DNA of 64,000 nt from an uncultured Gemmatimonadales bacterium (GTDB lineage Bacteria > Gemmatimonadota > Gemmatimonadetes > Gemmatimonadales > Gemmatimonadaceae), in the NCBI GenBank assembly GCA_963851265.1, contig CAWKNZ010000002.1, positions 1,120,001 through 1,184,000 of the forward strand, read 5' to 3'. The notes under the pieces were generated by a model. The model was not told where the DNA came from, did no database searches, and saw only the letters and a list, made by a program, of their open reading frames with translations. This document shows positions 3,890-61,647 of the stretch, piece by piece (position 1 is the first letter of the stretch; every line of letters begins with the position of its first letter). Made by a program: the position numbers and the translations under genes.

Positions 3890-4884
3890 TCGCGCGTTCC
3901 GCGGGCGACGTGAGCATCGGGGAGCAGTCGCCTGTGGCGTCCTCACGTCCGCCGATCGTCGTGGTCGGAGCCGGCGGTCAGGTCGGGTGGGAGTTGGTGC
4001 GCGCGTTCGCCCCGCTCGGACCCGTCATGGCGCTCGACCGCGCCCGACTCGACCTAACCGACCTCGATGCGGTCTCGGCGTGCATCCGGCAGATCGCGCC
4101 GCGCGCCGTGGTCAACGCGGCCGCGTACACCGACGTGGACGGCGCCGAGCGAGAGCCCGCGCTCGCCCGGCGCATCAATGCGGAGGCGCCGGGCGCGCTG
4201 GCCGCCGCGACGGCGGCTCTCGGCGTGCCGCTCGTGCACTACTCGACCGACTACGTCTTCGACGGAACGGCTGTCACGCCGTATCGCGAGAACTCGCCGA
4301 CCGCGCCCCTGGGCGTCTACGGCCGGACGAAGGTCGACGGAGAGACTGCGATCGCCGCCGCGGACGGGCCCCATCTCATCATCCGCACGAGTTGGGTCTA
4401 TGGCGCACGTGGGCGCAATTTCCTGCGCACGATGCTGCGCCTCGCGCACACGCGCCCTGCGCTGCGCGTGGTCGCGGACCAGCGCGGCGCGCCGACGTGG
4501 AGCCGGGCGATCGCGGAGGCAACGGCGTGCATGCTCGCGCGGCTCGCGCAGCCCGACGGGCGGTTCGTGCTCGACGGCGACCGCGCGGGCGTGTACCACG
4601 TGACCGCGGCCGGGGAGACGACGTGGCACGAATTCGCCCGCGCCATCCTCGCGGCGGATCCGGCGCGCGACGCCCAGAGCTGTCGGGAGTTGGAGCCGGT
4701 CACGTCTGCGGAATACGGCAGCCCGGTCGCGCGCCCCGCGTATTCGGTGCTCGCGTGTGACCGCGCGCGCGAGGTATTCGGCGTTCAGCTTCCCACGTGG
4801 GACGAGCAGCTCGCGCTCGTCATGGCCGAGGTCGCGGAGCGGGCGAGCGGGGCCGGGGCCGCGACCGCCGGCTCGCCGCGTTAG
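3886..4884 (+). CDS. rfbD: dTDP-4-dehydrorhamnose reductase
   Basis: GAGGQVG, NAAAYTDVD, STDYVFDG, YGRTK, RPAYS; start uncertain. Confidence 0.95.
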   Translation: MIARSAGDVSIGEQSPVASSRPPIVVVGAGGQVGWELVRAFAPLGPVMALDRARLDLTDLDAVSACIRQIAPRAVVNAAAYTDVDGAEREPALARRINAEAPGALAAATAALGVPLVHYSTDYVFDGTAVTPYRENSPTAPLGVYGRTKVDGETAIAAADGPHLIIRTSWVYGARGRNFLRTMLRLAHTRPALRVVADQRGAPTWSRAIAEATACMLARLAQPDGRFVLDGDRAGVYHVTAAGETTWHEFARAILAADPARDAQSCRELEPVTSAEYGSPVARPAYSVLACDRAREVFGVQLPTWDEQLALVMAEVAERASGAGAATAGSPR

Positions 4885-6044
4885 GCTCCGCCGGCGCGCT
4901 CCGCCGGCGGGTGTTCCTCGAGCAGCATGTCGTACGCGCTCACGACCTCGTCGGGCGCGACCGATTGCGCGCCGAGCTTTCCGACTTCGACGCCCGCCGC
5001 GAAGTTGGCGATCACCGCCGCCTCGCGCGGGGTCGCGCCTGCGCCGAGCATCACCGCGAGGTACGCCGTCACGGTGTCGCCCGCGCCGACCACGTCGTAC
5101 ACGTCGCGCGCCGCGGTCGGGATCCGAAATGGGACGGCGTCGCCGGTGAGCAGCGCCATCCCGCGCTCGCCCAGGGTGAGGAGGAGCTGGTCGACGCCGA
5201 GCCGGGCGAGGGTCGCGGGGAGGGCCTGCGGGTCGTCGAGGTCGACGGCGGCGCCGAGCGCGGCTTCGAGTTCGCGCCGATTCGGCTTGAAGACGGTCGC
5301 GCCGCGGTACTGAAAGAAGTTGCGGTACTTCGGGTCGACGACGATCGGGATGCCGCGACCGCGGGCGACGGCGATCGCGTGCGTGATGACCGCCGGCACG
5401 AGCACGCCCTTGTTGTAGTCCTCGAGCACGAGCGCGGTCGCGCCCTCGAGCGCCGCGGATACGGCGCCGAGGACGCGCGCCTCGTCGTTGGCCGCGAGAT
5501 CGGCGTCGTCTTCCTCGTCGAACCGGACGACCTGCTGCGCGCGCGCGAGGACCCGCGTCTTCGTGGTCGTCGGGCGGTCGAGCGTGACGAGGGCGGTCGG
5601 GTCCGCGCCGATCGCGACGAGCATCTCGCGGAGCCGGCCGCCGGCGAGGTCTGCGCCGACGGTGGCGACGAGCGCGCACCCCGCGCCGAGCGCGGCAACG
5701 TTCTGGGCGACGTTGGCCGCCCCGCCGAGCGCGTCGCGCCGTTCCCGGACGCGTACCACGGGGACCGGCGCCTCGGGCGAGATGCGTTCGACGTCGCCGC
5801 GATAGTAGACGTCGAGCATCGCGTCGCCGACCACCACGACGCGCTGCGCGGGCGCGTGGGCGAGCAGTTCGAGCAGGCGCGCGCGGGGCAGGGCGGCGAG
5901 TGCCACGTCGTGCGCCGGGCTGTGTGCCGGGGGCGCGAATTCGGTGCCGGTGGCGGGGACCGCCGGCGCGTGCGCCGGCGGCGATGACGCTCCTGCCGTC
6001 TGCGGCGCGGGCTCGGTCGTGGCGGTGACGGGGACGGTGGTCAC
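4881..6044 (-). CDS. rfaE1: D-glycero-D-manno-heptose-7-phosphate kinase (stand-alone HldE/RfaE domain I, PfkB family)
   Basis: VGDAMLD, RISPEAPVPV, LGGAANVA, DYNKG, DVVGAGDT; start estimated at GTG 6044. Confidence 0.9.
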   Translation of the reverse strand: MTTVPVTATTEPAPQTAGASSPPAHAPAVPATGTEFAPPAHSPAHDVALAALPRARLLELLAHAPAQRVVVVGDAMLDVYYRGDVERISPEAPVPVVRVRERRDALGGAANVAQNVAALGAGCALVATVGADLAGGRLREMLVAIGADPTALVTLDRPTTTKTRVLARAQQVVRFDEEDDADLAANDEARVLGAVSAALEGATALVLEDYNKGVLVPAVITHAIAVARGRGIPIVVDPKYRNFFQYRGATVFKPNRRELEAALGAAVDLDDPQALPATLARLGVDQLLLTLGERGMALLTGDAVPFRIPTAARDVYDVVGAGDTVTAYLAVMLGAGATPREAAVIANFAAGVEVGKLGAQSVAPDEVVSAYDMLLEEHPPAERAGGA

Positions 6045-6166
6045 GCGCGATACGGTAACCCGGCGGGGTGCGCGGGGCAACGCGCGGTCGCGCCCGGCAC
6101 GACGATTGCCCACCAGCGGGACGCACGTGGGGGCGCGTCCGACCCGCGCCCCGCCCCGACGCCACC

Positions 6167-6979
6167 GTGCCCGCACTCACCACGCGCCTCAGCGCGTTCG
6201 CTCTGGACACCGCCCAGGGCGCGCAGAATTATTCTCAGCTCGCGTGGAAGTCCGCGCGCTTCGTCTTCGCGCGCCCGTTCTACACGGCCGACCTGTTCCA
6301 GCAGATGGACGCGATGGGCGTCCAGTCGCTCGGGATCGTGTTGCTCACCGGGTTCTTCACCGGGATGGTCCTCGCGCTGCAGTCGTCGGTGCAGCTGAAG
6401 ACGTTCGGCGCCACGCAGTACATCGGCTCGCTCGTGTCGGCGTCGATGATCCGCGAACTCGGGCCCGTGCTCGCCGGGCTGATGGTCGCCGGGCGCGTCG
6501 GGTCCGGCGTCGCCGCACAGATCGGCTCGATGAAGGTGACCGAGCAGATCGACGCGCTCAACACGCTCGGCACCGATCCGATCAAGAAGCTGGTGACCCC
6601 GCGCGTACTCGCGGCGGTCGTGATGCTTCCGTTGCTGACCGTGATCAACGACCTGGTCGGCATTCTGGGCGGCAACCTGATCGCGAAGATCTACGTCGGG
6701 CTGCCGACGTCGTTCTACTGGCAGACCGTGTGGCAGCAGATCGCGCAGGGTGGATTTTCGTTCGGCGTCATCCCGAACGATTTCATCCAGGGGCTCGTGA
6801 AGCCGATCGTGTTCGGCGCGATCATCGCCGTCACCGCGTGCTACTACGGGCTCGGCACGTCCGGCGGGACCGAGGGCGTCGGCGTCGCGACGACGCGGAC
6901 CGTCGTTGCGGCGAGCATCTCGATCCTCGTGGTCGACTACTTCCTGACGCAGGTCCTGCTCGCGGTGTTTGCGGTATGA
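6167..6979 (+). CDS. mlaE: MlaE family ABC transporter permease
   Basis: IRELGPVLAGLMVAGRVGS, MKVTEQIDAL, GVGVATT. Confidence 0.93.
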   Translation: MPALTTRLSAFALDTAQGAQNYSQLAWKSARFVFARPFYTADLFQQMDAMGVQSLGIVLLTGFFTGMVLALQSSVQLKTFGATQYIGSLVSASMIRELGPVLAGLMVAGRVGSGVAAQIGSMKVTEQIDALNTLGTDPIKKLVTPRVLAAVVMLPLLTVINDLVGILGGNLIAKIYVGLPTSFYWQTVWQQIAQGGFSFGVIPNDFIQGLVKPIVFGAIIAVTACYYGLGTSGGTEGVGVATTRTVVAASISILVVDYFLTQVLLAVFAV

Positions 6980-7004
6980 CTGCGCGGCACGGGGAGCGTC
7001 CGCG

Positions 7005-7895: not shown

Positions 7896-7931
7896 CCCGC
7901 GGCCCTCCAGCGCCCTGCCACCGCCCCGCCC

Positions 7932-11748: not shown

Positions 11749-12924
11749 GTGCCGACCGCGCAACGCGGCCACGACGCGACGGTCCGCCGCGACCCGTTCC
11801 CGACCGACGTTCACGCCCTGTTCGATCGCCCGCTCGTCGACCGCGAGGCGGCGGCGGCCCTCGCGCTCGTTCCAGGCGTCGGCCCAGTCCGCTGGCGTGC
11901 GCTCCTGACCCGCCACGACGGCGACGGCGCGCGCGCGGCGCTCGCGCACGGCGTCACGGCACCGACGTGGGCACGCGCGTTGCGCGACGCAGCCGCGTAC
12001 CTCAGGTCGACCGACGCGGACACCGCGGTCGCGATCCCCGGCGACGCGCGCTACCCGCGCGCGCTGCTCGACCTGCCGGATGCCCCACCCCTCCTCTGGA
12101 TCCGCGGCGATCGCAGCGCGCTCGCGCACGCACCGCGCGTCGCACTCGTGGGCACGCGTCACAACACGTCGGCCGGGGCAGTGACTGCACGCCGGCTCGT
12201 CGGCGCGCTCCGTGACACCAACGCGTGCGTCGTCAGCGGCATGGCCCGCGGCATCGACGGCGTCGTACACGACGCCGCCCTCGGCGCGGATCTCCCCACG
12301 ATCGCGGTCCTGGGCACCGGAGTCGACGTGCCGTACCCCGCGCAACACCGCCGACTCTACGAGCGCATCGTCGCCGGCGGCGCCGTCGTGAGCGAGCAAC
12401 CGCCGGGGACCGCACCCGTGCCCGGCGCCTTCCCACGCCGGAACCGGATCATCGCGGCCATCAGCCACTGCACCGTCGTCGTCGAAGCGGGGGAACGCAG
12501 CGGCGCGCTCATCACCGCCGACATCGCGCTCGAACTCGGCCGTACCGTCGCCGCCGTTCCGGGCCCGATCGACGCGCCGGCGTCGCTCGGCGCGAACTCC
12601 TTACTCCGGGACGGCGCACACCTGCTCGCAACCGTCGACGACCTCGCTCCGCTCCTCGCGGCTCCGATCACGCGTACGACACCCGGTCCGCCGCCGAATC
12701 GGCGGCGGCCGGTCGAGCCGCGGCCCGAGCCACGGCCGCGCCGGCCCGACCTCGCGGGCGACGAACTCGTCGTGTGGGACGCGCTCACCGAGCCGGCGCC
12801 GGATGCCGACGCGCTCGCGGCCCGGACCGCACTGTCGGCGCGCCAGTGCGCCACCGCGCTCGCCGGGCTCGAGATCCGCGGCGTCGTCGCGACCGAACTG
12901 ACCGGCGCCATCCGGCGCGTGTGA
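11749..12924 (+). CDS. dprA: DNA-processing protein DprA
   Basis: VGTR, VSGMARGIDG, FPRRNRII, VVEAGERSGALIT; start estimated. Confidence 0.93.
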   Translation: MPTAQRGHDATVRRDPFPTDVHALFDRPLVDREAAAALALVPGVGPVRWRALLTRHDGDGARAALAHGVTAPTWARALRDAAAYLRSTDADTAVAIPGDARYPRALLDLPDAPPLLWIRGDRSALAHAPRVALVGTRHNTSAGAVTARRLVGALRDTNACVVSGMARGIDGVVHDAALGADLPTIAVLGTGVDVPYPAQHRRLYERIVAGGAVVSEQPPGTAPVPGAFPRRNRIIAAISHCTVVVEAGERSGALITADIALELGRTVAAVPGPIDAPASLGANSLLRDGAHLLATVDDLAPLLAAPITRTTPGPPPNRRRPVEPRPEPRPRRPDLAGDELVVWDALTEPAPDADALAARTALSARQCATALAGLEIRGVVATELTGAIRRV

Positions 12925-19039: not shown

Positions 19040-21481
19040 ATGAATTCGCACGCGCTCACCGTCCTTGAGTATCCCCGCGTCCTGGCCGTCGTCGCCGACC
19101 GTGCGACGTCCACGCTCGGCGCCGCCCGCTTGCGGGCGCTCTCCCCGTCGTCGGACATCCCCTGGCTGGAAGGGGAGCACCGGCGCGTGGCGGCGGTGCG
19201 CGCGCTCGTCGCGAGTGAGGGCGGGTGGTCGCCAGAGCCAACGCCCGACCTGACCGAGCCGCTCGCGCGCCTGCGCGTCGTGGGCACCGTGTGGAGCGGG
19301 CCCGAGCTGGTCCAGGGCGCGACGTTGCTGCGCTCGTCGCGGCGCACGCGCGACGCGCTGTCGGACGCCAAGCGTCCGGCCATCGTCGCGGCCGTGCTCG
19401 CGCCATTCGCCGACCGCCTGCCGAGTGCGTCGCGCATGGAGCAGCAGGTCGAGCGGGCCGTCGCCGAGGACGGCACGGTGCGGGACGACGCGAGCGCGGT
19501 GCTTCGCGGGCTGCGGCGCGAGCTGCGCGGCGCGCAGGGCGAGCTGATCGCGTTGCTCGAGCGCGCCATCGGTCGACTCGAAGCGCACCAACAGGTGCCG
19601 GATGCGTCGGTCACGGTGCGCAACGGGCGCTACGTCATTCCGGTGCGTGCCGCCGCGCGCGGCGTGGTCGGCGGGATCGTGCACGACGCGTCGAGCACCG
19701 GCGCGACGCTGTTCGTCGAACCGCCGGCCGCGGTCGAGTTCGGAAACCGCATCCGCGAGCTCGAAGCGCGCGAGTCGGCGGAGGTCCAGCGTATCCTCGC
19801 CGAGCTGACCGATGAGCTTCGGCCCCTGCGCGAGGCGCTGCTCGCCGCGCTCGACGTGCTGGTCGCGCTCGACACGCTGTACGCGCGCGCGCGCTTCGCG
19901 ACCGAGTTCGGGTGCGCGCCGTGCGACATCGTGCCGGCCGGCGAGGGCTTCGCGATCGTGAACGGTCGCCACCCGCTCCTGCTCGCGCAGGGGGTCCCCG
20001 TCGTGCCGTTCGAGCTCGCGATGGACCCGAACGAGCACACTCTGCTCGTGTCCGGGCCCAACACCGGCGGCAAGACGGTGCTGCTGAAGGCGCTCGCGCT
20101 CGTCTCGCTGCTCGTCCAGAGCGGGATCCCGGCGCCGGTCGGCGACGAGAGCCGCGTCGCGGTCTTCGACGACTTCTTTGCCGACGTCGGCGACGAGCAG
20201 AGTCTGCAGGCATCGCTCTCGACGTTCTCGGCGCACCTCAAGAACCTCACCGAGATCGTCGCCGCCGCGACGCACGCGTCGCTCGTGCTCATCGACGAGC
20301 TCGGCTCCGGCACCGACCCGGTGGAAGGAGCGGCGTTAGGCGCCTCGGTGTTGGAGGAGTTGACGGGCCGCGGCACGACGACGATCGCGACCACGCACCT
20401 CGGCGCCCTGAAGGAGCTCGCGACCGAAGTGCGTGGCGTCGTGAACGCGTCGCTCCAGTTCGACGCCGTCGCGCTCGCGCCGACGTACCGGCTGCTCAAG
20501 GGCGTGCCGGGGCGCTCGTACGGCCTCTCGATCGCCCGCCGGCTCAACATGCCGGAGGCGATCGTCGCGCGCGCGGTCGAGCGCATTCCGAAGGGCGAGC
20601 GCGACGTCGACGCGCTGCTCGCCGACCTCGAAACGCGCGAGAAGGCGCTCGAAGATCGGGAGAAGCTCGCCGACGAGCTCGTCGAGAGCGGCCGGGCGCG
20701 TGCGCAGCGACTCGCCGAGCGTGAGAAGGCCGTGCGCGACCGCGAGCGCACGGCCGAGCGCGAGGCGCGCTTGGAGGCGCGCCGGCACCTTCTCGACGCC
20801 CGGAAACAGGTCGACCGTCTGCTTCGCGACCTCAAGACCGCCGCGTCCGAGTTGAGCGGTGTGCCGGCATCCGAGCTCGACGAGCGCGCGCGCGCCGCGC
20901 GGCGCCGTGCGGAGGAACTCGCCGCCGGACAGCAGGAGCACCTCGAGCGGCTCGCGCGCGAGGAGCGGAACCTCGCGCGCCGCGACACGCCGCGCGCCCG
21001 CCCGAACGGTGCCGCGCAGACGAGTGCGGCGAGCCCGCCCGCCGCGGGCGACACCGTCATCGTCCAGACGTTGGGCGGGAAGCTCGGCAAGCTCCTCGAA
21101 CTGCGGGGGAAGGACGCGGTCGTGGCGGTCGGCGCGTTGAAGCTGACCGTTCCGCTGGACGGCGTCGCGAAGACGTCGCAGCAGATTCCGAAGCCCGAGA
21201 TCGTCGTGCCATCGCTCGGCGCGCTCCCCGAGGTGCGCGCCCAGAGTGAGGTGGACCTGCGGGGCATCCGCGCGGACGAGGTCGACGACGCGCTCCTGCC
21301 GGCGATCGACGCGGCGGTGCACGCCGATCTGCGCCACCTCCGCATCATCCATGGCAAGGGAACCGGCGCGCTGCGCGAGCGCGTGACGGAGTTACTCCGC
21401 AAGGACACGCGCGCGCGCTCGTTCCGCATGGGGCTGTGGAACGAGGGAGGCTCCGGCGTGACCGTGGTGGACCTCGAGTGA
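19040..21481 (+). CDS. mutS2: Endonuclease MutS2
   Basis: GPNTGGKT, DELGSGTDP, TTH, C-terminal Smr domain IIHGKGTG. Confidence 0.95.
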   Translation: MNSHALTVLEYPRVLAVVADRATSTLGAARLRALSPSSDIPWLEGEHRRVAAVRALVASEGGWSPEPTPDLTEPLARLRVVGTVWSGPELVQGATLLRSSRRTRDALSDAKRPAIVAAVLAPFADRLPSASRMEQQVERAVAEDGTVRDDASAVLRGLRRELRGAQGELIALLERAIGRLEAHQQVPDASVTVRNGRYVIPVRAAARGVVGGIVHDASSTGATLFVEPPAAVEFGNRIRELEARESAEVQRILAELTDELRPLREALLAALDVLVALDTLYARARFATEFGCAPCDIVPAGEGFAIVNGRHPLLLAQGVPVVPFELAMDPNEHTLLVSGPNTGGKTVLLKALALVSLLVQSGIPAPVGDESRVAVFDDFFADVGDEQSLQASLSTFSAHLKNLTEIVAAATHASLVLIDELGSGTDPVEGAALGASVLEELTGRGTTTIATTHLGALKELATEVRGVVNASLQFDAVALAPTYRLLKGVPGRSYGLSIARRLNMPEAIVARAVERIPKGERDVDALLADLETREKALEDREKLADELVESGRARAQRLAEREKAVRDRERTAEREARLEARRHLLDARKQVDRLLRDLKTAASELSGVPASELDERARAARRRAEELAAGQQEHLERLAREERNLARRDTPRARPNGAAQTSAASPPAAGDTVIVQTLGGKLGKLLELRGKDAVVAVGALKLTVPLDGVAKTSQQIPKPEIVVPSLGALPEVRAQSEVDLRGIRADEVDDALLPAIDAAVHADLRHLRIIHGKGTGALRERVTELLRKDTRARSFRMGLWNEGGSGVTVVDLE

Positions 21482-36814: not shown

Positions 36815-37717
36815 GTGACGACGAATCCCACCTTTCCTCCCGCCAGCACCCGCGTCCAGACGCGCCGCGTCGGGCGGCTCACGGTGCACGCTATCCACGC
36901 CGGCGTGCAGCAGCTCGACGGCGGCGCGATGTTCGGGGTGGTGCCGAGGCCGCTCTGGGAACGCAAAGTTCCGCCCGACGCACGCAACCGCATTCCACTC
37001 GCGATGCGCTGTCTCCTCGTCGAGCACGACGACGGGCTCGTGCTCGTCGACGCGGGCATCGGCAACAAGGACGACGCCAGGTTTCGCGAGATCTACGGCG
37101 TCGCGAACGCCGGTGCGGGCGGCCGGACCTGGCTCGAGGATGGCCTGCGAGCGTTAGGGCACGCGCCGGAGGACGTACGACTCGTCATCAACACGCACCT
37201 GCACTTCGACCACGCGGGCGGGAACACGTACCGTGACGAGGACGGGACCGTGCGCCTCGCGTTTCCCAACGCGCGCTACGTCGTGCAACGCGGCGAGTAC
37301 GTCTATGCGACGCATCCGAACGAACGGACCGCGGCGAGCTATCTGACGCCGAACGTCGCGCCGGTCGAAGCGGCCGGGCGCTTCGACCTGATCGAGGGCG
37401 AGGTCGTGATCGTGCCCGGCATCCGCGCGCTCCCCACGCCCGGTCACGTTCCCCACCATCAGAGCGTGCTGGTCGAGAGCGAGGGCGAGGTCGCGTGCTT
37501 CCTCGGCGACGTGGTGCCCACGTCGGCACACCTGCCGCTACCCTGGATCATGGGCTACGACGTCGAGCCGCTCGTGACGCTCGAAAGCAAGCGCTGGCTG
37601 CTCGCGCGCGCCGCGGCCGACGATTGGGCCGTGGTGTTCGAGCACGATCCCGTGGTGGCGTGGGGTCGCGTGGTACACGACGGCCGGCAATACGCGCTGC
37701 GTGACGCCGCGGGCTGA
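36815..37717 (+). CDS. MBL-fold metallo-hydrolase (YtnP-like)
   Basis: LDGGAMFGVVP, THLHFDHAGG, PGH, MGYD. Confidence 0.9.
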   Translation: MTTNPTFPPASTRVQTRRVGRLTVHAIHAGVQQLDGGAMFGVVPRPLWERKVPPDARNRIPLAMRCLLVEHDDGLVLVDAGIGNKDDARFREIYGVANAGAGGRTWLEDGLRALGHAPEDVRLVINTHLHFDHAGGNTYRDEDGTVRLAFPNARYVVQRGEYVYATHPNERTAASYLTPNVAPVEAAGRFDLIEGEVVIVPGIRALPTPGHVPHHQSVLVESEGEVACFLGDVVPTSAHLPLPWIMGYDVEPLVTLESKRWLLARAAADDWAVVFEHDPVVAWGRVVHDGRQYALRDAAG

Positions 37718-38602: not shown

Positions 38603-38803
38603 ATGCCGAAGATGAAGTCGCACCGCGGCGCGAAGAAGCGCTTCTCGGTCACCGGGACCGGGAAGGTGAAGCGCGCGAAGGCCTACAAGAGCCACATCCT
38701 CACCAAGAAGTCGCCCAAGCGGAAGCGCAACCTGCGCCGCAACACGACCGTGGGCACCAACGGCGAGGCGAAGGTGCTCAAGCGCCTGCTGCTCGCCTCC
38801 TAA
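38603..38803 (+). CDS. rpmI: 50S ribosomal protein L35
   Basis: [20 protein letters not shown]. Confidence 0.97.
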
Positions 38804-38840
38804 CGCCACCGTCGCGACGCGAATCACAGGAGCCTAGACG

Positions 38841-51929: not shown

Positions 51930-53723
51930 ATGCTGACAGAGCTCCGCATCCGGAACTTCGCCATCATCGACTCGCTCGCGCTTCCGCTCGCGCGCGGGTT
52001 CAACGTGTTGTCCGGCGAAACCGGGGCGGGGAAGTCGATCATCGTCGGTGCGCTCGGCCTGCTACTCGGTGAGCGCGCGAGCACCGAGCTGATCCGCACC
52101 GGCGCCGACCGTGCGACGGTCGAGGGCACGTTCGACGTGGACGGACGTGACGACCTCGCCGCGCTGCTCGACGCACGCGGAATCGATGTGGACGCGCGAA
52201 CGGTCGTGCTCAAGCGCGAGGTTGCGACCGGAGGGCGCACCCGCGCGTGGGCCAACGGCACGCCGGTGACGGCCGGCGTGCTGGCGGAGATCGGGCGCCT
52301 GCTCGTCAACCTCCACGGCCAGCACGAGGCGCAGACCCTGCTCGACGCCGAATCGCAGCGCCGCACGCTCGACGCGTTCGCCGGCGCGCAGGGGCAGGCC
52401 GAGCGCGTGCGCGCGGCGGCGGCGGCGCTGGATGCGGTGCGCGCCGAGATTCGTGCGCTCGACGCGCGGCGCGCCGAGGCGGAGCGCCGCGCCGACTACC
52501 TGCGCCACGTCGCCAAGGAGATCGAGGACGCGCGCGTGGTCGTCGGCGAGGACGAGCGGCTCGAAGAGGAGGCGCGCCGCCTCGAGCACGCCGACGAGTT
52601 GCGGACGCTGGCGGCCGGCGCGTCGGCGCTCCTGGACGGCGCCGAGGACGCCGTACTCCAGCAGCTCGCTGCAGTGCATCGCGCGTTAGGCACGCTGGAG
52701 CGCATCGACGCGTCGCTCGCGCGTTTCGGGGAGCTGTACGACGCGGCGTTTTACGCGCTCGAAGAGTTGTCGCGCGAACTCGTCGACTACGAGCGAGGCG
52801 TGGAGCTCGACCCCGAGCGGCTGCAGGACGTTCAGCGCCGGCGCGACCTCCTGTTCCGGCTCACCAAGAAGTACGGCCCCACGCTGGCGAACGTCGTCGA
52901 CCAGGGTCGTCGCGCGCGCGAGGAGCTCGACCTGGTCGACTCCGCCGACGCCGACCTTCGCGCACTCGAGCTCCGCGAGGCGGCGGCGCGCGACGAGCTC
53001 GCGCGGGCGGCCGCCGAGCTCACGGCACGCCGCACGGCCGCGTCCGACCAGTTGAGCGAGGCCGTCGAGCGCGTCTTCCCGGACCTCGGGATGGCCGACG
53101 GGCGGTTCCGGGTCGCGCTCACACCCCGCGCCGAGCCGGCGGCGACCGGCGCCGAGGACGTCGAGTTCCGCGTCGCGCTGAACGTCGGCCACGACGCACG
53201 CCCGCTCGCGCGCGCGGCCAGCGGCGGCGAACTCTCCCGGGTGATGCTCGCGCTCAAGACCATCCTCGCGCGGCTCGACCGCGTGCCGACGCTCGTGTTC
53301 GATGAAGTCGACGCCGGGATTGGCGGCCGCGTCGGCCTGCTCGTCGGTGAGACGATGCGGCGCGTCGCGGATCACCACCAGGTGTTCGCGATCTCGCACC
53401 TGCCGCAGCTCGCGGCGCGCGCCCACCACCACATCCTCGTCAGCAAGGGCGCGCGCGACGGCGTGACGACGGCAGACGTGAGGGTGCTCGCGGGCGACGC
53501 GCGGGTGACGGAAGTCGCGCGGATGCTCGGCGGGGACGCCGAGAGCCCGGTGAGCCGCGCGCACGCGCGCGAACTGCTCGACGACGCGGTTCGCACCTCG
53601 GCGAGCAACGGCGCGGCCGCGCCCGCCCCGGCACCGCCCTCCAGTCCTGCGCCCGGCGTGCCCGGGACTAACGGCGCCCGCGCAGCCCGCCGTACACCCG
53701 CAGCGAGAGCACGTCCGAGCTGA
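51930..53723 (+). CDS. recN: DNA repair protein RecN
   Basis: GETGAGKS, HGQHE, ASGGELSR, FDEVDAG, HLPQ. Confidence 0.96.
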   Translation: MLTELRIRNFAIIDSLALPLARGFNVLSGETGAGKSIIVGALGLLLGERASTELIRTGADRATVEGTFDVDGRDDLAALLDARGIDVDARTVVLKREVATGGRTRAWANGTPVTAGVLAEIGRLLVNLHGQHEAQTLLDAESQRRTLDAFAGAQGQAERVRAAAAALDAVRAEIRALDARRAEAERRADYLRHVAKEIEDARVVVGEDERLEEEARRLEHADELRTLAAGASALLDGAEDAVLQQLAAVHRALGTLERIDASLARFGELYDAAFYALEELSRELVDYERGVELDPERLQDVQRRRDLLFRLTKKYGPTLANVVDQGRRAREELDLVDSADADLRALELREAAARDELARAAAELTARRTAASDQLSEAVERVFPDLGMADGRFRVALTPRAEPAATGAEDVEFRVALNVGHDARPLARAASGGELSRVMLALKTILARLDRVPTLVFDEVDAGIGGRVGLLVGETMRRVADHHQVFAISHLPQLAARAHHHILVSKGARDGVTTADVRVLAGDARVTEVARMLGGDAESPVSRAHARELLDDAVRTSASNGAAAPAPAPPSSPAPGVPGTNGARAARRTPAARARPS

Positions 53724-55332
53724 GCCGCGGCTGGGTGCCGCCGCCGCCCGCGGCGGTGACCGCGTGCAGGTAGCTCAGCTCGATCGGGAGTCGAGCACGA
53801 CCTCGCGACCACGCCGTCATCGTCGAGTACGACAGCCCAAGCCCGACGCGCGCCTCCCGCTGCGCCGTGCCGATGCCTAACGAAGAGGCGTCGAACGTCA
53901 CCGGCGGCCCGCCCGTCTCGTCCGCGGTGGCCGTGTACTGGCCGGTGTAGCGATCCGCCGCGCGCGCGCGAACGAGCGCCTGCCCCCACACGGCGAACGT
54001 CTCGCCCGTCGCGTATCGCGGATTCAGTTCGACCTGGACCTCGCGCCCGAGCTGTCGGCTGACCTCTCGCTCGCGGAAGAGCGGGACGTAGCCGGAGTCG
54101 AACGCGGCCGGCACGCGCAGCCGGCGCGTGTCGCCGAACGGCGCGGCGAGGCGGACCGCGCCGGAGATCGACACGCGCGGATTGAACACCACGTCGGTGA
54201 TCGAACGCAGGAGCAGCCCGTACGCACCGGTCGCGGGCGGCACGTCCAGCAGGATCCCCGGTACTTCGTACCGCCCGGTCCCTAACCGAACTCCGGCGAC
54301 GATCGTGCTCCGCACGCGCCGGCCCGCCGAGGTCGCACGCGAGCGCGCCATCCCACGCGCGTCCCGCGCGTCGTCGAACGTGTTCAGCCATTGATACATC
54401 GCGGTGAGCTCGACGTCACCGATCCCCCAATGGCGGAAGCCGCCGCCGAGCGAATCGGCTGCGGCCAGCCCGAACGACGTGTCCGCGACGGCGACGTGGT
54501 AGCCGGCGATCCCGATCCGCGCCTGCGCCGCGTACGGGACGGCGGTCGTGTCGAGCGTGACGCCGTCCGCGCGCGCACTGGCCGCGAGCCGCCCGAGTCG
54601 TTGGATGACCGCGGCCTGCGCGGCCGACCCTACGAGCGGGACCGCGTTTGCGCCCGGTGCCGTCCCGTTGCCGTAGACGCTGGCGAGCGCGGTCGCGAAG
54701 CGCGCGAGCGAGTCCGCGAGCGCGCTCGCGCCCGCGCTCTTGAGCGCCGCCGCGGCGGTCGTGAGGGCCTGCTGCGCCCGCAGGTTCGCCGCGTTCGCGG
54801 TCGACACCGTCGTCGCGTCGGCGTACCGAGAGTTGGCCGGGTTCAGCCCGAAATTCCCGTCCTTGCCCCCGGGGTTGACCGTGGGGGCGATGGACGTGCG
54901 CGTGCGCGTGATCGGCACCAGCACGCCGAACGCGAGCCGGCGCGAGAGCCCGACCTCGAGCGACAGTGGCACACTCAGCGTCTGGGCGTATCCGCTCACC
55001 TGCACCCGCCCGAGTGACAGGGCGAGCGCGCTGTTGCCGGTGATGGCGCGCAGCGTGTCGCGCACGGCGCGCAGTCGTGGGAGCTGCGTCACGCCGAACG
55101 AGTCGGTCGAGAACGCGCTTCCCACGCCCGCGCGCGCGCCACCGGCGAACGTCGATCCCCACGCCGTCACGTTCGGCGTCGCGCGAGCGCGCACCTGGCC
55201 GGGGGCGGGCAGCGTAGCGTCTTCGCCGCCGCCGAGGACGGCCTGGGCGGCGAGGTCACGCGCGCCGGCCAGCGACGCCGTGAGGGCGGCCGCTGCCAGG
55301 AGACCGGGCGCGCGGTGATTACGGAACGGCAA
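53668..55332 (-). CDS. Hypothetical secreted/outer-membrane protein
   Basis: 3' part of tracked ORF 53668..56757; TTG start (55332 or 55347), signal peptide LLAAAALTASLAGARDLAAQ, amphipathic beta-strand-like segments, own promoter. Confidence 0.65.
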   Translation of the reverse strand: MPFRNHRAPGLLAAAALTASLAGARDLAAQAVLGGGEDATLPAPGQVRARATPNVTAWGSTFAGGARAGVGSAFSTDSFGVTQLPRLRAVRDTLRAITGNSALALSLGRVQVSGYAQTLSVPLSLEVGLSRRLAFGVLVPITRTRTSIAPTVNPGGKDGNFGLNPANSRYADATTVSTANAANLRAQQALTTAAAALKSAGASALADSLARFATALASVYGNGTAPGANAVPLVGSAAQAAVIQRLGRLAASARADGVTLDTTAVPYAAQARIGIAGYHVAVADTSFGLAAADSLGGGFRHWGIGDVELTAMYQWLNTFDDARDARGMARSRATSAGRRVRSTIVAGVRLGTGRYEVPGILLDVPPATGAYGLLLRSITDVVFNPRVSISGAVRLAAPFGDTRRLRVPAAFDSGYVPLFREREVSRQLGREVQVELNPRYATGETFAVWGQALVRARAADRYTGQYTATADETGGPPVTFDASSLGIGTAQREARVGLGLSYSTMTAWSRGRARLPIELSYLHAVTAAGGGGTQPRLSSDVLSLRVYGGLRGRR

Positions 55333-55452: not shown

Positions 55453-57258
55453 GTGCCAACACTCCCGCCCACGCAGGTTCCCTGGCAAGTCACCGGCAAT
55501 CACTGGCTGTCGCTGCCGTGCATCCACCCGGCGGACGGCGCGGTTCACGCGGTCGGGGTACTTCACCGCGGGGCGCGCGCGGCCGTCGAGTTCGCCGGCG
55601 ACGCCGAGTTCCTCGCCGGGACCGGGCCCGCGTTGCTGCGCCCGGTGCTGCGCGTGGACGGCGTGGTGCGCGAGGTCGGCGGTGAGGGCGGAGCGATCGC
55701 GTGGGAGCGGGCCATGCACTGGCTGCCGACGTTCACGTCGACGCTCGCCGATTCCCTCGTCGTGCGCGGAACGATCTTCGCGCCGCACGGGCGCGACGCC
55801 GACCTGTCCGGCGCGGTGTACACGATCGCCGTCGAGAACCGGGGCGCCGCCGCCGTCGACATCGAACTCGCGCTCGAGGGCACGCTCGGGCACCGGCAGC
55901 TGCGCGTCCGCTCTCCACGCCCGTTCGACGACGCGCCGCGCGTGCACCGCGGCGCCGACGACGTGCTGGTGCTTGAAGGCGCGGCGCTCCCGGGACTCGT
56001 CGCAATCGCACTCGGGGCGGACGGCGAGGCGCGCGTCGAGATCGACGACGCCGGAGCGGGTGGCGCGCCGCGGTACGCGGTCCGACGCGCGTTCCGGGTC
56101 GAGCGGGGCACGACGCAGCAGGCCGCCTTCTATCTCGCCGCCGGCCCGGAGCGCGACGGCGCCCAGGCGACGGTCGCGGCGATGCGTCGCCGCGGATGGC
56201 GTGAGCTGCTCGCCCGCACGCGCGACGCGCTGCGCGACCTCGAGCAGACCACCGGCAACGCCGCCATCGACCGGCTGCTCAATCGAAACCTGCTGTTCGC
56301 GTACTTCTACGGCTGCGGGCGCGCACTCGACGACGCGCATTTCTACCTCGCGCGCACGCGCTCTCCCGCCCACGGACTCGGAGTCACGGTCCGCGACTGG
56401 GAGGCACTCACGTGGACGCTGCCGGCCGTACAGTTGGCCGACCCGGGCCTTGCGCGTGAACTCCTGCTGCGTGCGTGCGAGCTGCTCGGCTACGCGCCCG
56501 GCGACGGCGTGCGCTACCTCGACGGCACCTTGTTCGAGCCCGGATTCTCGCTCGAGGGTGCGGCGGCGTATGCCCTCGCCGCGGATCGCTACGTGCGCGA
56601 TACCAACGACGACCAGGTGATCGAGGAGGGCGTGCTCGCCGACACTCTCTACGCGGCCCACGACGACATCGCGGCACGGCGCGACGAGCGGCAGCCGCTC
56701 TACTCCACCGCGGTCGGCGTGTCGGGCGACCCGGTCGCGCATCCGTACACGCTGCACGGGAACGCGGTTGTCGCGCAGGCGCTCGCCGTCTTCCGGCGCA
56801 CGCTCGACGAGGAGACCGCGAAGTCGGTCCAGGACCCGGAGGCCGTGCGCGCCGCGCTCGCGCGTCAGTTCGGCGTCGAACGCGAGGGGAAGACGGTGTT
56901 CGCCGCCGCGATCGACCTCAAGGGCGCGAGCGCCGAGCGCGACGACCCGGTCGGCTCGGCGCTGTGGCTCCCGCTGTACGACGCGGTGGAACGCAGCGAC
57001 TCGACGTACCGCCGCACCGCGCGCGCGTTAGGCCCCGAGCACGCGGGCCAGCTCGCCGCACAGATCGCGCGCCTCCTCGGGCCCGACGCGCCACAGATGC
57101 TCCAGTGGCTGCGCCGCGCGCCTCTCGACCAAGGCGTCGCGGCGGAGTTCGTCGACGAGGAGGGGCGCGCGACGGGAAACGGCGGCGACGCCGCGCTCTC
57201 CGGGCTGCTCGCCGCGACCGTGTGGCACGCCGTGCACGTCCTCGGGGTCACGCCGTAA
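55453..57258 (+). CDS. Six-hairpin glycosidase-like protein (GH125-like, divergent)
   Basis: RDWEAL, HPYTLHGN, DDPVGSALWLP and AAEF segments recall the GH125 (alpha/alpha)6 motifs. Confidence 0.55.
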   Translation: MPTLPPTQVPWQVTGNHWLSLPCIHPADGAVHAVGVLHRGARAAVEFAGDAEFLAGTGPALLRPVLRVDGVVREVGGEGGAIAWERAMHWLPTFTSTLADSLVVRGTIFAPHGRDADLSGAVYTIAVENRGAAAVDIELALEGTLGHRQLRVRSPRPFDDAPRVHRGADDVLVLEGAALPGLVAIALGADGEARVEIDDAGAGGAPRYAVRRAFRVERGTTQQAAFYLAAGPERDGAQATVAAMRRRGWRELLARTRDALRDLEQTTGNAAIDRLLNRNLLFAYFYGCGRALDDAHFYLARTRSPAHGLGVTVRDWEALTWTLPAVQLADPGLARELLLRACELLGYAPGDGVRYLDGTLFEPGFSLEGAAAYALAADRYVRDTNDDQVIEEGVLADTLYAAHDDIAARRDERQPLYSTAVGVSGDPVAHPYTLHGNAVVAQALAVFRRTLDEETAKSVQDPEAVRAALARQFGVEREGKTVFAAAIDLKGASAERDDPVGSALWLPLYDAVERSDSTYRRTARALGPEHAGQLAAQIARLLGPDAPQMLQWLRRAPLDQGVAAEFVDEEGRATGNGGDAALSGLLAATVWHAVHVLGVTP

Positions 57259-57463: not shown

Positions 57464-57546
57464 GCCCGGATGGCGAAATCGGTAGACGCATGGGTCTTAA
57501 AAACCCTGGCCCTCTGGGCGTGCGGGTTCGAGTCCCGCTCCGGGCA
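57464..57546 (+). tRNA. tRNA-Leu(TAA)
   Basis: GCCCGGATGGCGAAATCGGTAGACGCA, anticodon loop CTTAAAA, long variable arm, GGTTCGAGTCCCGCTCCGGGCA. Confidence 0.95.
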
Positions 57547-57551
57547 TGACG

Positions 57552-57633: not shown

Positions 57634-58530
57634 TCAGAACGGCAGGTCGTCGCCGTCGATCGGAGAGCCTAACGGCGCCGCGTCGAACCGCGGCTCGGGC
57701 GATGCCGCGGCTGCCGCGCGCGCACGCGACGGTGCGCGACCGTTCGCCCGCGCCGGCGGAGTTCCGGCGGCTGCCGGCGAGGCTGGCACTTCGGCCGGTT
57801 CCCCGGGGCGCGGCGGCCAAACGACGCCGTCACAGCTTCGATCGCGACACTTGAAGTCAGGCGCCTTCGGATTGCGCTTGGTGAGCCGGTTGTCCCACAT
57901 CCGTCCGCTGCACTTCGGGCACGTCGGGTCGTCGGTAGCCCCCGCGCCGGACTGGGCGGCCGACGCGAACTCATCATCGTCGGCGGGGATCGGCTCGACA
58001 CTCGGCTGACGCGCGGTGACCGGCCGTCGCGTGTCGGCCGCAGCGGTCCGTCGAGCGTCGGCAGCGGCCGGCTCGTCGACGGGGCGCGGCACGTCCGGGC
58101 CGTCGACGACCACCCAGTTCGGCTCGCGCCCGTTGAGCTCGTGACCGATCCCGAAGCGCACCGCGGCGCGCGCGAGCGCGTCGTTCGCCGCGCTCTTGTA
58201 GTCGGGACCGGTGCCGACGTCTTCCCGGATCACGCCGAGGATCTGAAGGCGAGCCTTGAACGCGCATTCCGGTGTGTCACCGGCACGCGTTGGCAGCGAG
58301 GGGAGTAGCTCGAGCGTGAGATCCCACTCGCCGGGAACGACGCGATCGAGGCGCTCGCGGACGGCATTCGCGCCGGGATGCGCGACGTAGCGCACGTACC
58401 ACGCGCCGTCGCGCGCGACGGGTCCGCCGTCCTGCCGCCACGCGGTCGCGTCGGCGTCGAGGGGCGCGGCGAGCGCGGACCAGAGGTTCGGCTTGTCGAG
58501 GGAGGTGGGGGCGTCGTGGCGTGCAATCAT
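57634..58530 (-). CDS. Rad52/Sak/DdrA-like ssDNA-annealing protein with C-terminal Cys4 zinc finger
   Basis: AVRERLDRVVPGEW, REDVG.G.D.KSA.NDALARAAVRFGIG, CPKC...DFKCRDRSC, tail DGDDLPF. Confidence 0.75.
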   Translation of the reverse strand: MIARHDAPTSLDKPNLWSALAAPLDADATAWRQDGGPVARDGAWYVRYVAHPGANAVRERLDRVVPGEWDLTLELLPSLPTRAGDTPECAFKARLQILGVIREDVGTGPDYKSAANDALARAAVRFGIGHELNGREPNWVVVDGPDVPRPVDEPAAADARRTAAADTRRPVTARQPSVEPIPADDDEFASAAQSGAGATDDPTCPKCSGRMWDNRLTKRNPKAPDFKCRDRSCDGVVWPPRPGEPAEVPASPAAAGTPPARANGRAPSRARAAAAASPEPRFDAAPLGSPIDGDDLPF

Positions 58531-59656: not shown

Positions 59657-60016
59657 GTCGGCGGGGGCAGGAGAACGGGCGGCGTATCGGACCGAATATT
59701 ACCCGAAAGTCGCGGTTCGGTCAACGCGCCACGGACCCGCCGGACCGATCCGGCTAGTAGACGCTAAGTCGCTGCGCCGTAATGTTTTACACGGGATGGC
59801 GGCGACGAGTTCCGGCGGTGGATCCGCGGCCGCTCGCGAGCCCAGTCGCGCCGGACCACGCCGGCCGCCACGCCGCGTCCGTCGATTCGCCGATTGCCGA
59901 CCGGCAGGGCGCGAGAGTCGCGCGCCCGCATCGCCGCGGGGGGCGATCCGCGACGCGGTACGTGGCGCGCGACGTGCAACCGCGCCCCGACGACCACCCC
60001 TACCACGAGGATCGAC

Positions 60017-60547: not shown

Positions 60548-60568
60548 GACGTCGACGCCCCGCGCGGA

Positions 60569-60632
60569 GGCGCGCAAAGCTAACGGTCCCGCGCGTGGCA
60601 CCCCACGCGCGGGACCGTTAGCTTTGCGCGCC
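60569..60632. repeat. Perfect 30-bp inverted repeat with 4-nt loop
   Basis: ggcgcgcaaagctaacggtcccgcgcgtgg-cacc-ccacgcgcgggaccgttagctttgcgcgcc. Confidence 0.9.
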
Positions 60633-61634
60633 ATGCAACCCGCCGCCGACGTCGTCTCGCTCGCCGCCGAGCTGCTCGCCGCGCAGTCGTCGACCGGCGC
60701 CGAGGGCCCGGCGGTCGATTTCGTATCAGGGTGGCTCATTCGCCGCGGATGGGACGTCATGCTGCAGGAGGTCTCGCCGGGCCGCAGCAACGTCTGGGCG
60801 ACCCGCCGCGGCGGCGGCGTGACCTTCTCGACGCATCTCGACACCGTTCCGCCCTACTATCCCCCGCGGCTCGAGGGCAGCCGCCTGTACGGGCGCGGGT
60901 CGGCCGACGCCAAGGGCATCGCGGCCGCGATGATGGTCGCCGCGGATCGACTCGCCCGCGCGGGCGAGGAGCGCATCGACCTCCTCTTCGTCGTCGGCGA
61001 GGAGAAGGGCTCGGACGGCGCGCGGGCGGCGAATCACCTGCCGGCCACGAGCGCGTGGCTCGTCAACGGCGAGCCCACCGAGAGCAAGCTCGCGAGCGGG
61101 GCCAAGGGCTCGCTCCGCGTGACGGTTCGCACGCGCGGCCGCGAGGCCCACTCCGCGTACGCCCACCTGGGCCGGTCCGCGATCGACCCGCTCGTCGACC
61201 TGCTGTCGGGCCTGCGCACCCGGTCGTGGCCCGCAGACGACGCCCTCGGCGCGACGACCTACAACGTGGGCGTCATCCGCGGCGGGTCCGAGGCCAACAT
61301 CGTGCCGGCCGCGGCGGAGGCGGAACTCATGTTCCGAGTCGTCGGCGACCCCGCTCCGGTGCGCTCCCAGCTGACGGAATGGGCCGACGGCACGGCCCAA
61401 CTCGAATGGGGTTCGTACATTCCGGCCCAACGATTCCACACGATCGACGGGTTCGAGATCGCGCCGGTGTCGTACACCTCGGACATCCCGCTGCTCGGGC
61501 GTTGGGGAACGCCGTTGCTGTTCGGGCCCGGATCGATCACGGTCGCGCACACGCCGGACGAGTACGTGGCGGTCGGCGAACTGCGCGAGAGCGTCGACGC
61601 GTACGCGAGCATCGCGCGCGCGCTGCTCGCCTAA
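60633..61634 (+). CDS. M20 family metallo-hydrolase (ArgE/DapE-like)
   Basis: HLDTV, GRGSADAKG, GEE, GEPT, AHS, AHTPDE. Confidence 0.9.
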   Translation: MQPAADVVSLAAELLAAQSSTGAEGPAVDFVSGWLIRRGWDVMLQEVSPGRSNVWATRRGGGVTFSTHLDTVPPYYPPRLEGSRLYGRGSADAKGIAAAMMVAADRLARAGEERIDLLFVVGEEKGSDGARAANHLPATSAWLVNGEPTESKLASGAKGSLRVTVRTRGREAHSAYAHLGRSAIDPLVDLLSGLRTRSWPADDALGATTYNVGVIRGGSEANIVPAAAEAELMFRVVGDPAPVRSQLTEWADGTAQLEWGSYIPAQRFHTIDGFEIAPVSYTSDIPLLGRWGTPLLFGPGSITVAHTPDEYVAVGELRESVDAYASIARALLA

Positions 61635-61647
61635 CGCTCGCCGGTCC

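What the first reader, a model, noticed from the sequence alone, without database searches (positions are those of the whole stretch)
4879..61636. Dispersed octamer CGTTAGGC written into housekeeping genes via the rare TTA codon
Seen: 12 exact copies. On + at 4879, 20334, 22006, 24278, 25034, 28854, 30385, 52684 and 57026; as GCCTAACG at 53875, 57667 and 61629. Near-copies occur at 37152 and 38799. Ten copies sit in coding sequence as NCG-TTA-GGC (x-Leu-Gly) in mutS2, dnaG, recJ (twice), the PP2C gene, rsmA, recN, the GH-like gene, the OMP and the Rad52-like gene. The other two form GCC-TAA stop codons. Leu-Gly is otherwise mostly CTC/CTG-GGC here, and this context holds roughly half the TTA codons I found by eye. 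A rough mononucleotide estimate gives about 2 expected copies. Inference: selection on the DNA rather than the protein, such as a DNA-uptake-like sequence (dprA is present), a Chi/KOPS/HIP1-like signal, or a nucleoid-protein or methylase site. It also equals the integron core GTTRRRY, but no attC structure surrounds it. I know of no description of this motif in this lineage.
Basis: partly seen in the sequence, partly recalled or inferred. Interest (0 to 1): 0.8.

Follow-up and report, generated by a model that had tools for sequence, protein, structure and literature searches.

The report
Genome-wide DNA word with GC halo
A soil bacterium has written one short DNA word about 1,800 times through its chromosome against its own codon habits, and each copy keeps other copies at a distance and sits in a small zone where A/T letters are replaced by G/C faster, which suggests a 'self' tag that draws in DNA exchange with kin, read by a protein that is still unknown.

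Summary
Real and genome-wide. All 12 copies are confirmed. The host is a Gemmatirosa-like genome with 1,762 copies of the core GTTAGGC. In genes there are 1,290, against 74 after synonymous shuffling, and the word holds 994 of 1,291 TTA codons. It is not polarised to replication and is conserved in position between species. This scan noted the word before, in other windows of this genome and in another genome; I found no paper on it.

(1) Copies avoid each other within about 300 bp, in either orientation.
(2) Each sits in a symmetric zone where silent A/T is cut by about 40-50%. There G<->C divergence is unchanged and A/T alleles turn over faster, the pattern expected from GC-biased gene conversion rather than from lower mutation.
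(3) One genome uses a dialect, CGTTTGGC.
(4) Phage contigs are tiled with it at about 2 per kb.
(5) It equals the usual end of attC sites in this order, but integrase presence does not track it.

Best reading: a self tag on double-stranded DNA that promotes uptake or integration of kin DNA (DUS/HIP1-like). No reader was found; a FimT/FimU-fold pilin and an order-wide methylase-helicase pair are candidates only.

The parts
4879..4886 (+). CGTTAGGC copy overlapping two convergent stop codons (TAG of rmlD on +, TAA of a PfkB kinase on -)
20334..20341 (+). copy in mutS2, GCG-TTA-GGC; same position kept in G001, G002, G004 and G012
22006..22013 (+). copy in dnaG, GCG-TTA-GGC; same position kept in G001, G002, G004 and G012
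24278..24285 (+). copy in recJ, ACG-TTA-GGC; core kept in G001, G002, G004
25034..25041 (+). second copy in recJ, CCG-TTA-GGC; kept in G001, G002
28854..28861 (+). copy in the GAF-SpoIIE (PP2C) gene, ACG-TTA-GGC; kept in G002, G004, G012
30385..30392 (+). copy in rsmA, GCG-TTA-GGC; kept in G002, G004
37152..37159 (+). decayed copy CGTTAGGG; G001, G002 and G004 carry the full word at this position
38799..38806 (-). near-copy at the TAA stop of the 66-aa gene 38603-38803
52684..52691 (+). copy in recN, GCG-TTA-GGC
53875..53882 (-). copy in an unannotated 554-aa gene on -, TCG-TTA-GGC
57026..57033 (+). copy in an unannotated 601-aa gene, GCG-TTA-GGC
57667..57674 (-). copy in the Rad52-like gene, CCG-TTA-GGC
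61629..61636 (-). copy forming the GCC-TAA stop of an M20 peptidase on +
11749..12924 (+). dprA: part of the competence set, present also in non-enriched relatives
57464..57546 (+). tRNA-Leu(TAA), which decodes the TTA codons the word forces
57634..58530 (-). Rad52-family protein; tested as a candidate partner, does not track the word

Best explanation
(C/T)GTTAGGC(G/A) is a 'self' tag read on double-stranded DNA by a sequence-specific protein, most likely at the DNA-uptake step of natural transformation. Fragments of kin DNA that carry it are taken up and recombined more often. This biased donation drives the word into any position a protein tolerates and keeps it there. One tag per roughly 300-400 bp is enough, so a second tag nearby gains nothing and is not accumulated. 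The extra homologous replacement around each tag fixes G/C over A/T, leaving a symmetric GC halo a few hundred bases wide. SHOWN: enrichment, orientation independence, positional conservation, short-range exclusion, halo, faster loss of A/T alleles, unchanged G<->C divergence, an intact competence gene set.
For: Enrichment 17-fold over a synonymous shuffle; antisense frames are realised as often as sense (167 of 785 against 781 of 4,729 compatible positions). No replichore polarity, while KOPS is polarised in the same test. Retention 86 of 109 against 88 of 673 background where Leu-Gly is conserved. Exclusion below 300 bp in all orientation classes, not matched by any of 225 control 7-mers; repeated in G012 (50 pairs against about 106) and in G. 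kalamazoonensis plasmid 2 (7 gaps against 18.5); reproduced by a non-additive +/-150 bp model. Two H. influenzae USS within 100 bp do not add uptake (PMC7811141, passages). Halo: silent A/T 3.3% near against 7.5% far, symmetric, absent around near-miss words and other TTA codons; lower near than far in 479 of 617 genes, odds ratio 0.62; also in spacers and in G004. G<->C divergence 0.31-0.35 near against 0.33-0.35 far. A/T alleles shared between species 21 of 408 near against 84 of 480 far, p = 5e-9. Graded base preferences and a dialect in G008. ComEC 40 of 41, HhH/ComEA-type 40 of 41, DprA, type IV pilins and a FimT/FimU-fold pilin with a C-terminal G-R-x-R tail.
Against: No reader gene tracks the word. 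The FimT-like pilin is in 37 of 41 genomes, enriched or not, was not found in dialect genome G008, has no clean co-varying residue, lacks the cysteines of ComP/PpdA and shows no transfer signature in genus g73. Competence has not been shown in this lineage in anything I could find. Phage contigs carry the word at about 2 per kb, above every host tested, which uptake alone does not predict. The halo is weak in G012 and absent in the 80 kb of G002 examined. In Neisseria, DUS flanks are slightly more divergent than other regions (PMC2397512, passages), whereas here amino-acid divergence is slightly lower near shared sites. Inverted pairs in terminators, common for DUS/USS, are rare here. The species comparisons all share G000 and silent sites are partly saturated.
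Confidence: 0.45

Rival explanations
1. Same drive and same conversion halo, but the tag is read inside the cell: a cytoplasmic protein, possibly with methylation by the order-wide Eco57I/MmeI/DrmMI-like adenine methylase and its SNF2 helicase neighbour, protects incoming DNA or boosts its integration in either orientation (HIP1-like). Phages copy the tag to pass as self.
For: Explains the phage tiling (35 copies in 16,975 bp against 1.06 expected, in portal, terminase and scaffold genes). A single-copy methylase with intact catalytic motifs is in 40 of 41 genomes, with the helicase beside it in 28 of 32 genomes whose loci I read. The AAC on the reverse strand is invariant across dialects. [quoted passage not shown]
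Against: The methylase is present equally in non-enriched genomes; no residue in its C-terminal, presumed specificity region separates enriched from non-enriched genomes (best column an Ala at position 619); genus g73 has the ordinary family-level version. Graded base preferences fit a binding matrix better than a methylase site (inference). No methylation data were available.
Confidence: 0.25
2. Binding site of a nucleoid or chromosome-structuring protein that covers about 300 bp; copies are kept by selection, and GC-rich flanks are favoured for binding or DNA shape.
For: Orientation-free, non-additive at short range, conserved. Present on a 1-Mb secondary replicon at 0.82 per kb. A 45-kb gap covers parAB and two perfect parS-like palindromes in G000. 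HIP1 has been argued to act in chromosome structure (PMC5861425, abstract).
Against: The parAB gap is not repeated in G001, G004 or G012. No extra ParB-like paralogue in the most enriched genome. Most relatives do without the word. Shielding from damage would lower G/C->A/T mutation but not speed the loss of A/T alleles, which is what one search shows; selection on flanking GC is not excluded.
Confidence: 0.15
3. Footprint or target of the integron integrase: the word is the attC core, written or kept by integrase activity on the chromosome.
For: 21 of 24 attC-like hairpins in a G027 array close with GTTAGGC; in non-enriched genomes copies cluster at cassette spacing. Only 32 of 16,384 7-mers fit GTTRRRY on either strand, so the match is unlikely by chance (arithmetic).
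Against: Full-length integrases occur in many non-enriched genomes, while the gene is split or in fragments in G000, G001 and G012 and not found in G008, G018 or G002 (G018 and G002 are under 80% complete). The dominant G008 word CGTTTGGC breaks GTTRRRY. Genomic integrase targets have only a GWT consensus (10.1101/2022.09.11.507474, passages). Long-term conservation inside essential genes needs selection or drive.
Confidence: 0.05
4. Neutral mutational drive by site-directed mismatch repair (Elhai-type model): a site protects itself and its surroundings from replication errors, so isolated sites pile up and new ones cannot arise nearby.
For: Predicts exclusion and conservation; model proposed for HIP1 (PMC4390886, abstract).
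Against: Predicts lower divergence near sites, but G<->C silent divergence is the same near and far and A/T alleles turn over faster near sites.
Confidence: 0.05
5. Chi- or KOPS-type directional signal, or a translational use of the rare TTA codon.
For: Overall strand bias on C2 (354 leading against 276 lagging) and a dedicated tRNA-Leu(TAA).
Against: The bias vanishes once gene strand is controlled (16.0% against 16.8%, p = 0.64; spacers 39:34). Halo and exclusion are symmetric. 768 of 1,762 copies are not read as TTA.
Confidence: 0.03

Closest known systems
DNA uptake sequences: DUS of Neisseriaceae (receptor ComP) and USS of Pasteurellaceae (predicted receptor PpdA/ComN)
   Same: Non-palindromic word in one to several thousand copies, both orientations, in all tolerated frames; conserved in core genes; scarcer in low-GC3 genes (0.12 against 0.54 per kb); lineage dialects; non-additive at short range; reshapes proteins in the most enriched genome.
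   Different: Shorter (7-8 bp), no extended flanking motif, few terminator pairs, most copies in coding DNA through a rare codon, unrelated phylum, patchy in its order, no receptor identified, GC halo (I found no report of one for DUS/USS), dense in phages, identical to attC ends.
HIP1 of cyanobacteria (GCGATCGC, methylated by DmtA/DmtC)
   Same: 15- to 300-fold over-represented, conserved in and between genes (PMC5861425, abstract); linked to transformation (10.1101/2024.09.10.611283 and PMC13756078, abstracts); alternative words in some lineages (PMC4390886, abstract).
   Different: This word is not palindromic and no methylase tracks it.
Chi sites and KOPS
   Same: Short non-palindromic over-represented word tied to recombination or chromosome handling.
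   Different: No replichore polarity, symmetric effects, exclusion also between opposite orientations; this genome has its own polarised KOPS.
Integron attC core site (GTTRRRY)
   Same: Identical letters to the usual attC end in this order.
   Different: 1,746 of 1,762 copies are not in an attC-like pair; kept inside essential genes; independent of an intact integrase.
Sequence-defined recombination hotspots with GC-biased gene conversion in eukaryotes (recalled; the link of recombination and GC is discussed in PMC4866539, passages)
   Same: A motif at the centre of a symmetric, few-hundred-base zone of A/T->G/C fixation bias.
   Different: Here the motif gains rather than erodes, as expected if it is on the donor strand; bacterial; mechanism unproven.

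Membership tests
DUS/USS uptake sequences | Short word strongly over-represented genome-wide in both orientations | tested here: met
DUS/USS uptake sequences | Conserved in core genes, scarce in atypical or recently acquired DNA | tested here: met
   86 of 109 retained; 0.12 against 0.54 per kb across GC3 deciles; GC3 is a proxy for residence time, not a direct test
DUS/USS uptake sequences | Host has the competence machinery | tested here: met
   ComEC, HhH/ComEA-type protein, DprA, pilins; equally present in non-enriched relatives
DUS/USS uptake sequences | Sequence-specific surface receptor (ComP or PpdA type) whose presence or sequence tracks the word | tested here: inconclusive
   FimT/FimU-fold pilin found but does not track; pilin sequences of non-enriched genomes were compared for this one family only
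DUS/USS uptake sequences | Word increases DNA uptake | not testable with these tools
   needs a bench assay
DUS/USS uptake sequences | Frequent inverted pairs in terminators (common, not defining) | tested here: not met
   17 opposite-orientation neighbours within 150 bp among 1,750 gaps, several of them attC
HIP1 | Palindrome | tested here: not met
   sequence
HIP1 | Cognate methyltransferase co-occurs with the word | tested here: inconclusive
   no PF01555 or PF00145 enzyme found in G000 (94% complete); the order-wide enzyme does not discriminate; its target is unknown
HIP1 | Site is methylated in vivo | not testable with these tools
   no long-read data served
Chi / KOPS | Polarity with respect to replication | tested here: not met
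   with KOPS as positive control
Chi / KOPS | One-sided action | tested here: not met
   halo equal on both sides; opposite orientations also exclude
Integron attC | Inverted core boxes enclosing an imperfect hairpin of about 55-140 bp | tested here: not met
   8 such pairs in G000, none among the 12 window copies
Integron attC | Association with an intact integron integrase | tested here: not met
Noc/ParB-type dispersed binding sites | Extra ParB-family paralogue and palindromic site | tested here: not met
   G012 and G008 have one ParB match each; the word is not palindromic

The most novel reading that the evidence does not exclude
A third, independent DNA self-tag system whose reader is tuned to the conserved end of integron cassettes. 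It would let the cell fish cassettes out of environmental DNA; as a side effect the word is driven through the chromosome, each copy becomes a sequence-defined gene-conversion hotspot with a GC-biased footprint, and phages mimic it. That would tie cassette capture, uptake specificity and bacterial GC content to one word.
Probability: 0.13. Interest if true: 0.93.

Novelty: new variant of a known kind. Interest (0 to 1): 0.77.

Why it matters
In the papers read here, sequence-specific uptake tags are described for two proteobacterial families, and HIP1 in cyanobacteria is still debated. A new tag in Gemmatimonadota, present in the cultured type strain Gemmatirosa kalamazoonensis KBS708 (82 copies in 100 kb of its plasmid 2), can be tested directly and may be the key to making these soil bacteria transformable. 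The halo is a site-centred signature of A/T->G/C fixation bias with internal controls. If recombination causes it, it is an unusually clean test of whether GC-biased gene conversion shapes bacterial base composition. The match to attC ends and the tiling of phages raise two further testable questions.

Tried and rejected
1. parS exclusion. The largest gap (45,086 bp, C1:182,876-227,962; 0 copies against 12.4 expected at Leu-Gly positions) covers gidA-parA-parB-mnmE. G001 and G004 have copies 2-6 kb from parB and only a mild dip; G012 has none. Not general.
2. Noc-like ParB paralogue: no.
3. Integron integrase as maintainer: no.
4. Order-wide methylase-SNF2 pair: present everywhere, no tracking.
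5. FimT-like pilin, other pilins, HhH proteins, ComEC, Rad52-like protein: none tracks the word. A small extra HhH protein is in 4 of 5 genus g1 genomes, with possible counterparts in G012 and G016, but no second match in G008, G017 or G018; not followed further.
6. General site-directed repair: G<->C divergence unchanged.
7. Codon optimality as cause of the halo: G:C ratios within amino acids barely move and the effect is also in spacers.
8. Replichore polarity: none.
9. Other dominant words in non-enriched genomes: none obvious in 15-80 kb samples of ten genomes; low power.
10. Population variation: only assembled contigs of two low-depth soil runs were served; uninformative.
11. Relatives of the phage portal in the viral collection: only itself.
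12. Literature searches for the word with over-representation, for both strands of the word with the lineage name, for Gemmatimonad plus methylation motif, and for Gemmatimonad plus uptake sequence gave nothing relevant. The library lacks most subscription journals; no supplements were opened.
More orthologous DNA from G001 and pilin loci of non-enriched genomes could not be obtained, which limits the divergence test and the pilin comparison.


Full report
1. Observation. All 12 copies are at the stated places, against 0.93 +/- 1.0 expected. Ten are NCG-TTA-GGC and two are GCC-TAA stops. The window is G000:C2:1,120,001-1,184,000 of a 4.6-Mb, 73% GC genome. Its closest named relatives by DnaG are a Gemmatirosa sp. 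assembly (88%) and Roseisolibacter (58%), so the host is Gemmatirosa-like, family Gemmatimonadaceae.

2. Genome-wide. CGTTAGGC occurs 1,396 times (708 +, 688 -) and the core GTTAGGC 1,762 times, 28 and 18 times a second-order Markov expectation. It tops the 7- to 10-mer lists under second- and third-order models. Preferences are graded at -1 (C 79%, T 14%) and +1 (G 54%, A 22%); there is no extended flank motif. With my own gene caller (3,803 genes; it misses some overlapping genes, recN among them) the 1,762 copies split into 994 x-Leu-Gly, 200 x-Pro-Asn on the antisense reading, 73 Leu-Thr, 23 Val-Arg, 196 at stop codons and 276 intergenic. Coding copies number 1,290 against 73.5 +/- 7.9 in 20 synonymous shuffles, and 994 of 1,291 TTA codons lie in the word. 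Antisense frames are used as efficiently as sense frames, so the signal is on the DNA.

3. Not directional. A dif-like site lies at C2:~1,368,968 and KOPS is polarised towards it (150:72 left, 21:50 right). The word is realised at 16.0% of compatible positions in leading-strand genes and 16.8% in lagging-strand genes (p = 0.64); spacers give 39:34.

4. Kept by selection or drive. In 564 orthologue alignments with G001, G002 and G004, 94 of 151 G000 copies are shared in position, although four-fold sites are only 54-59% identical. Where Leu-Gly is conserved, retention is 86 of 109 against a background of 88 of 673. Three of six copies are shared even with G012 at 59% amino-acid identity, and G012 often has changed residues where it carries the word.

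5. Distribution. Among 40 relatives, 10 have 345-6,360 copies, 4 have 173-240 and 26 have at most 65. In a sample of 250 genomes of the phylum, 5 of 53 family members have over 400 copies; in the second family the five genomes of genus g73 have 181-1,061 and the other 109 at most 91; none of 80 genomes outside the order exceeds 70. Unpublished genomes G011, G082, G121 and G200 count among the non-enriched in these tallies. G008 prefers CGTTTGGC (925 against a reversed control of 110; no other of 46 genomes tested shows this), and G012 also uses CGTTAGGT and CGTTATGC. The cultured strain G. kalamazoonensis KBS708 has 82 copies in the 100 kb of plasmid 2 that I read.

6. Exclusion. Among Leu-Gly copies, neighbours within 100 bp number 0 against 27 expected from random placement on compatible positions, 6 against 24 at 100-200 bp, 11 against 24 at 200-300 bp, and 21 against 23 at 300-400 bp. 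The deficit holds in all four orientation classes and between coding and spacer copies; none of 225 control 7-mers of similar count comes near. It recurs in G012 (50 pairs against about 106) and the KBS708 plasmid; samples of G001, G002, G004 and G008 were too small to tell. A model in which benefit is the union of +/-150 bp intervals reproduces the curve.

7. GC halo. Silent A/T at four-fold sites is 3.3% within 40 bp of a copy and rises to 7.5% beyond 2 kb, equally on both sides and for both orientations. It is flat around pseudo-sites, near-miss words and other TTA codons. Part of the long tail is between genes; within genes the deficit fades by 300-400 bp. It holds in 479 of 617 genes, odds ratio 0.62. 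Nearly all A- and T-ending codons fall by a similar factor, G:C ratios hardly move, and spacers show it too (21% against 28% A/T). It recurs in G004 (2.5% against 6.4%) and, less clearly, G001; it is weak in G012 and G008 and absent in 80 kb of G002.

8. What causes the halo. If the word lowered mutation in general, G<->C silent divergence would fall near it; it does not (0.31-0.35 near, 0.33-0.35 far). If it only shielded G/C from damage, A/T alleles near it would last as long as elsewhere; instead 21 of 408 are shared between species within 200 bp, against 84 of 480 beyond 500 bp in the same genes (p = 5e-9). A/T is therefore being replaced faster near the word. That is a fixation bias, as expected from GC-biased conversion where recombination is concentrated, or from selection on flanking GC. 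Caveats: all pairs share G000, and silent sites are partly saturated.

9. The attC match. In a G027 array 21 of 24 attC-like hairpins close with GTTAGGC, and attC-like arrays in low-GC viral contigs do too, so the word is a common attC end. But G000 has only 8 attC-like pairs, integrases are intact in many non-enriched genomes and broken or not found in several enriched ones, and the G008 dialect breaks GTTRRRY. Integrase is not the maintainer. A reader tuned to attC ends remains possible, since transformation does deliver cassettes in Vibrio (PMC12614218, abstract).

10. Phages. Of 229 viral loci of at least 4 kb, found with patterns that require two copies, four fragments with virion genes or close kinship to them carry 1.9-2.5 copies per kb without attC arrays. 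The L296 portal has relatives in 4 of 301 genomes of the order, best 44%. Hosts are not established. This fits long residence as prophage in a very rich host, or direct benefit inside the cell.

11. ComEC (40 of 41), HhH/ComEA-type proteins (40 of 41), DprA and pilins are present across the order. A 135-aa minor pilin folds like FimU (pLDDT 94; TM 0.65, E 9e-7; Legionella FimT only E 0.34) and ends in a near-invariant G-R-x-R, the DNA-binding motif of FimT (PMC8897410, passages); a FimT-like pilin is the predicted USS receptor (10.1101/2025.06.16.659825, passages). It is in 37 of 41 genomes, not found in G008, and does not co-vary with the word. An order-wide methylase-helicase pair, ParB paralogues and the Rad52-like protein do not track it either.

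12. Mechanism. I favour a self tag on double-stranded DNA that raises uptake of kin fragments (0.45), then an intracellular, HIP1-like version of the same drive (0.25), then a structural binding site (0.15). The first two share the core claim that the word marks conversion hotspots. Parallels: USS pairs within 100 bp do not add uptake (PMC7811141, passages); DUS spacing matches conversion tract length (PMC2397512, passages); uptake words reshape proteomes (PMC2817400, passages); HIP1 is conserved by selection and aids transformation (PMC5861425, 10.1101/2024.09.10.611283, PMC13756078, abstracts). It works like a DUS, but membership is not shown: the receptor test is inconclusive and uptake could not be tested.

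13. Novelty. Four literature searches found no description of the word in this lineage; the library is incomplete. The scan itself noted it in six other windows of this genome and in another genome, all with a DUS-like reading; these are AI notes and not independent support. The short texts I saw of them do not mention the exclusion zone, the halo, the allele-turnover test or the phage tiling, and a word search for those terms returned nothing. Verdict: real, a new variant of the iterated self-tag class, interest 0.77.

Noticed in passing
G000 C7:579,717-585,511 (L063), outside the window: A 1,141-aa Eco57I/MmeI/DrmMI-like adenine methylase with intact catalytic motifs and an adjacent SNF2-type helicase, single copy and apparently vertically inherited: 40 of 41 genomes of the order, helicase beside it in 28 of 32 read. 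Unusual for a restriction-type enzyme; no PDB relative by sequence.
   Followed up: partly
G000 C1:192,709 and 195,715; G001 and G004 beside parB: Genus g1 has a variant parS-like palindrome in two perfect copies beside parAB, while G012 has the common form: a possible ParB specificity switch.
   Followed up: partly
G000 C1:182,876-227,962: 45-kb stretch without the word around gidA-parA-parB-mnmE; not repeated in three relatives.
   Followed up: yes
G000 C2:~1,368,940-1,368,968: dif-like site at the gene-strand switch, with KOPS polarised towards it; the window lies about 190-250 kb from the terminus.
   Followed up: yes
L296, L368, L501, L352 (viral contigs): Tailed-phage fragments with the word at 1.9-2.5 per kb and regular spacing; the L296 portal has a 44% identical relative in Gemmatimonadaceae genome G153. 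Hosts not established; found by a pattern that selects for two copies.
   Followed up: partly
G000 C6:3,005-6,044; C10:188,936-203,792: Integron integrase gene split by about 2 kb of other DNA, and a few attC-like hairpins on C6 and C10.
   Followed up: partly
window 57,634-58,530 (-): Chromosomal Rad52-family protein next to two tRNAs, syntenic in G001, G002, G004, G008 and G024; Pfam misses it.
   Followed up: partly
L055-L056 (G019:C10): A run of words built on GGGAAGCGGGA is 4-6 times over-represented in 26 kb; probably a local repeat.
   Followed up: no
window 4,879-4,886: One copy of the word supplies the stop codons of two convergent genes at once.
   Followed up: yes
L027-region alignments, G000 against G001, G002, G004: G000 has about half as many copies in orthologous genes as its congeners (113 against 195, 27 against 44, 11 against 26) and shows decayed forms, so the word may be eroding in this lineage.
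   Followed up: partly
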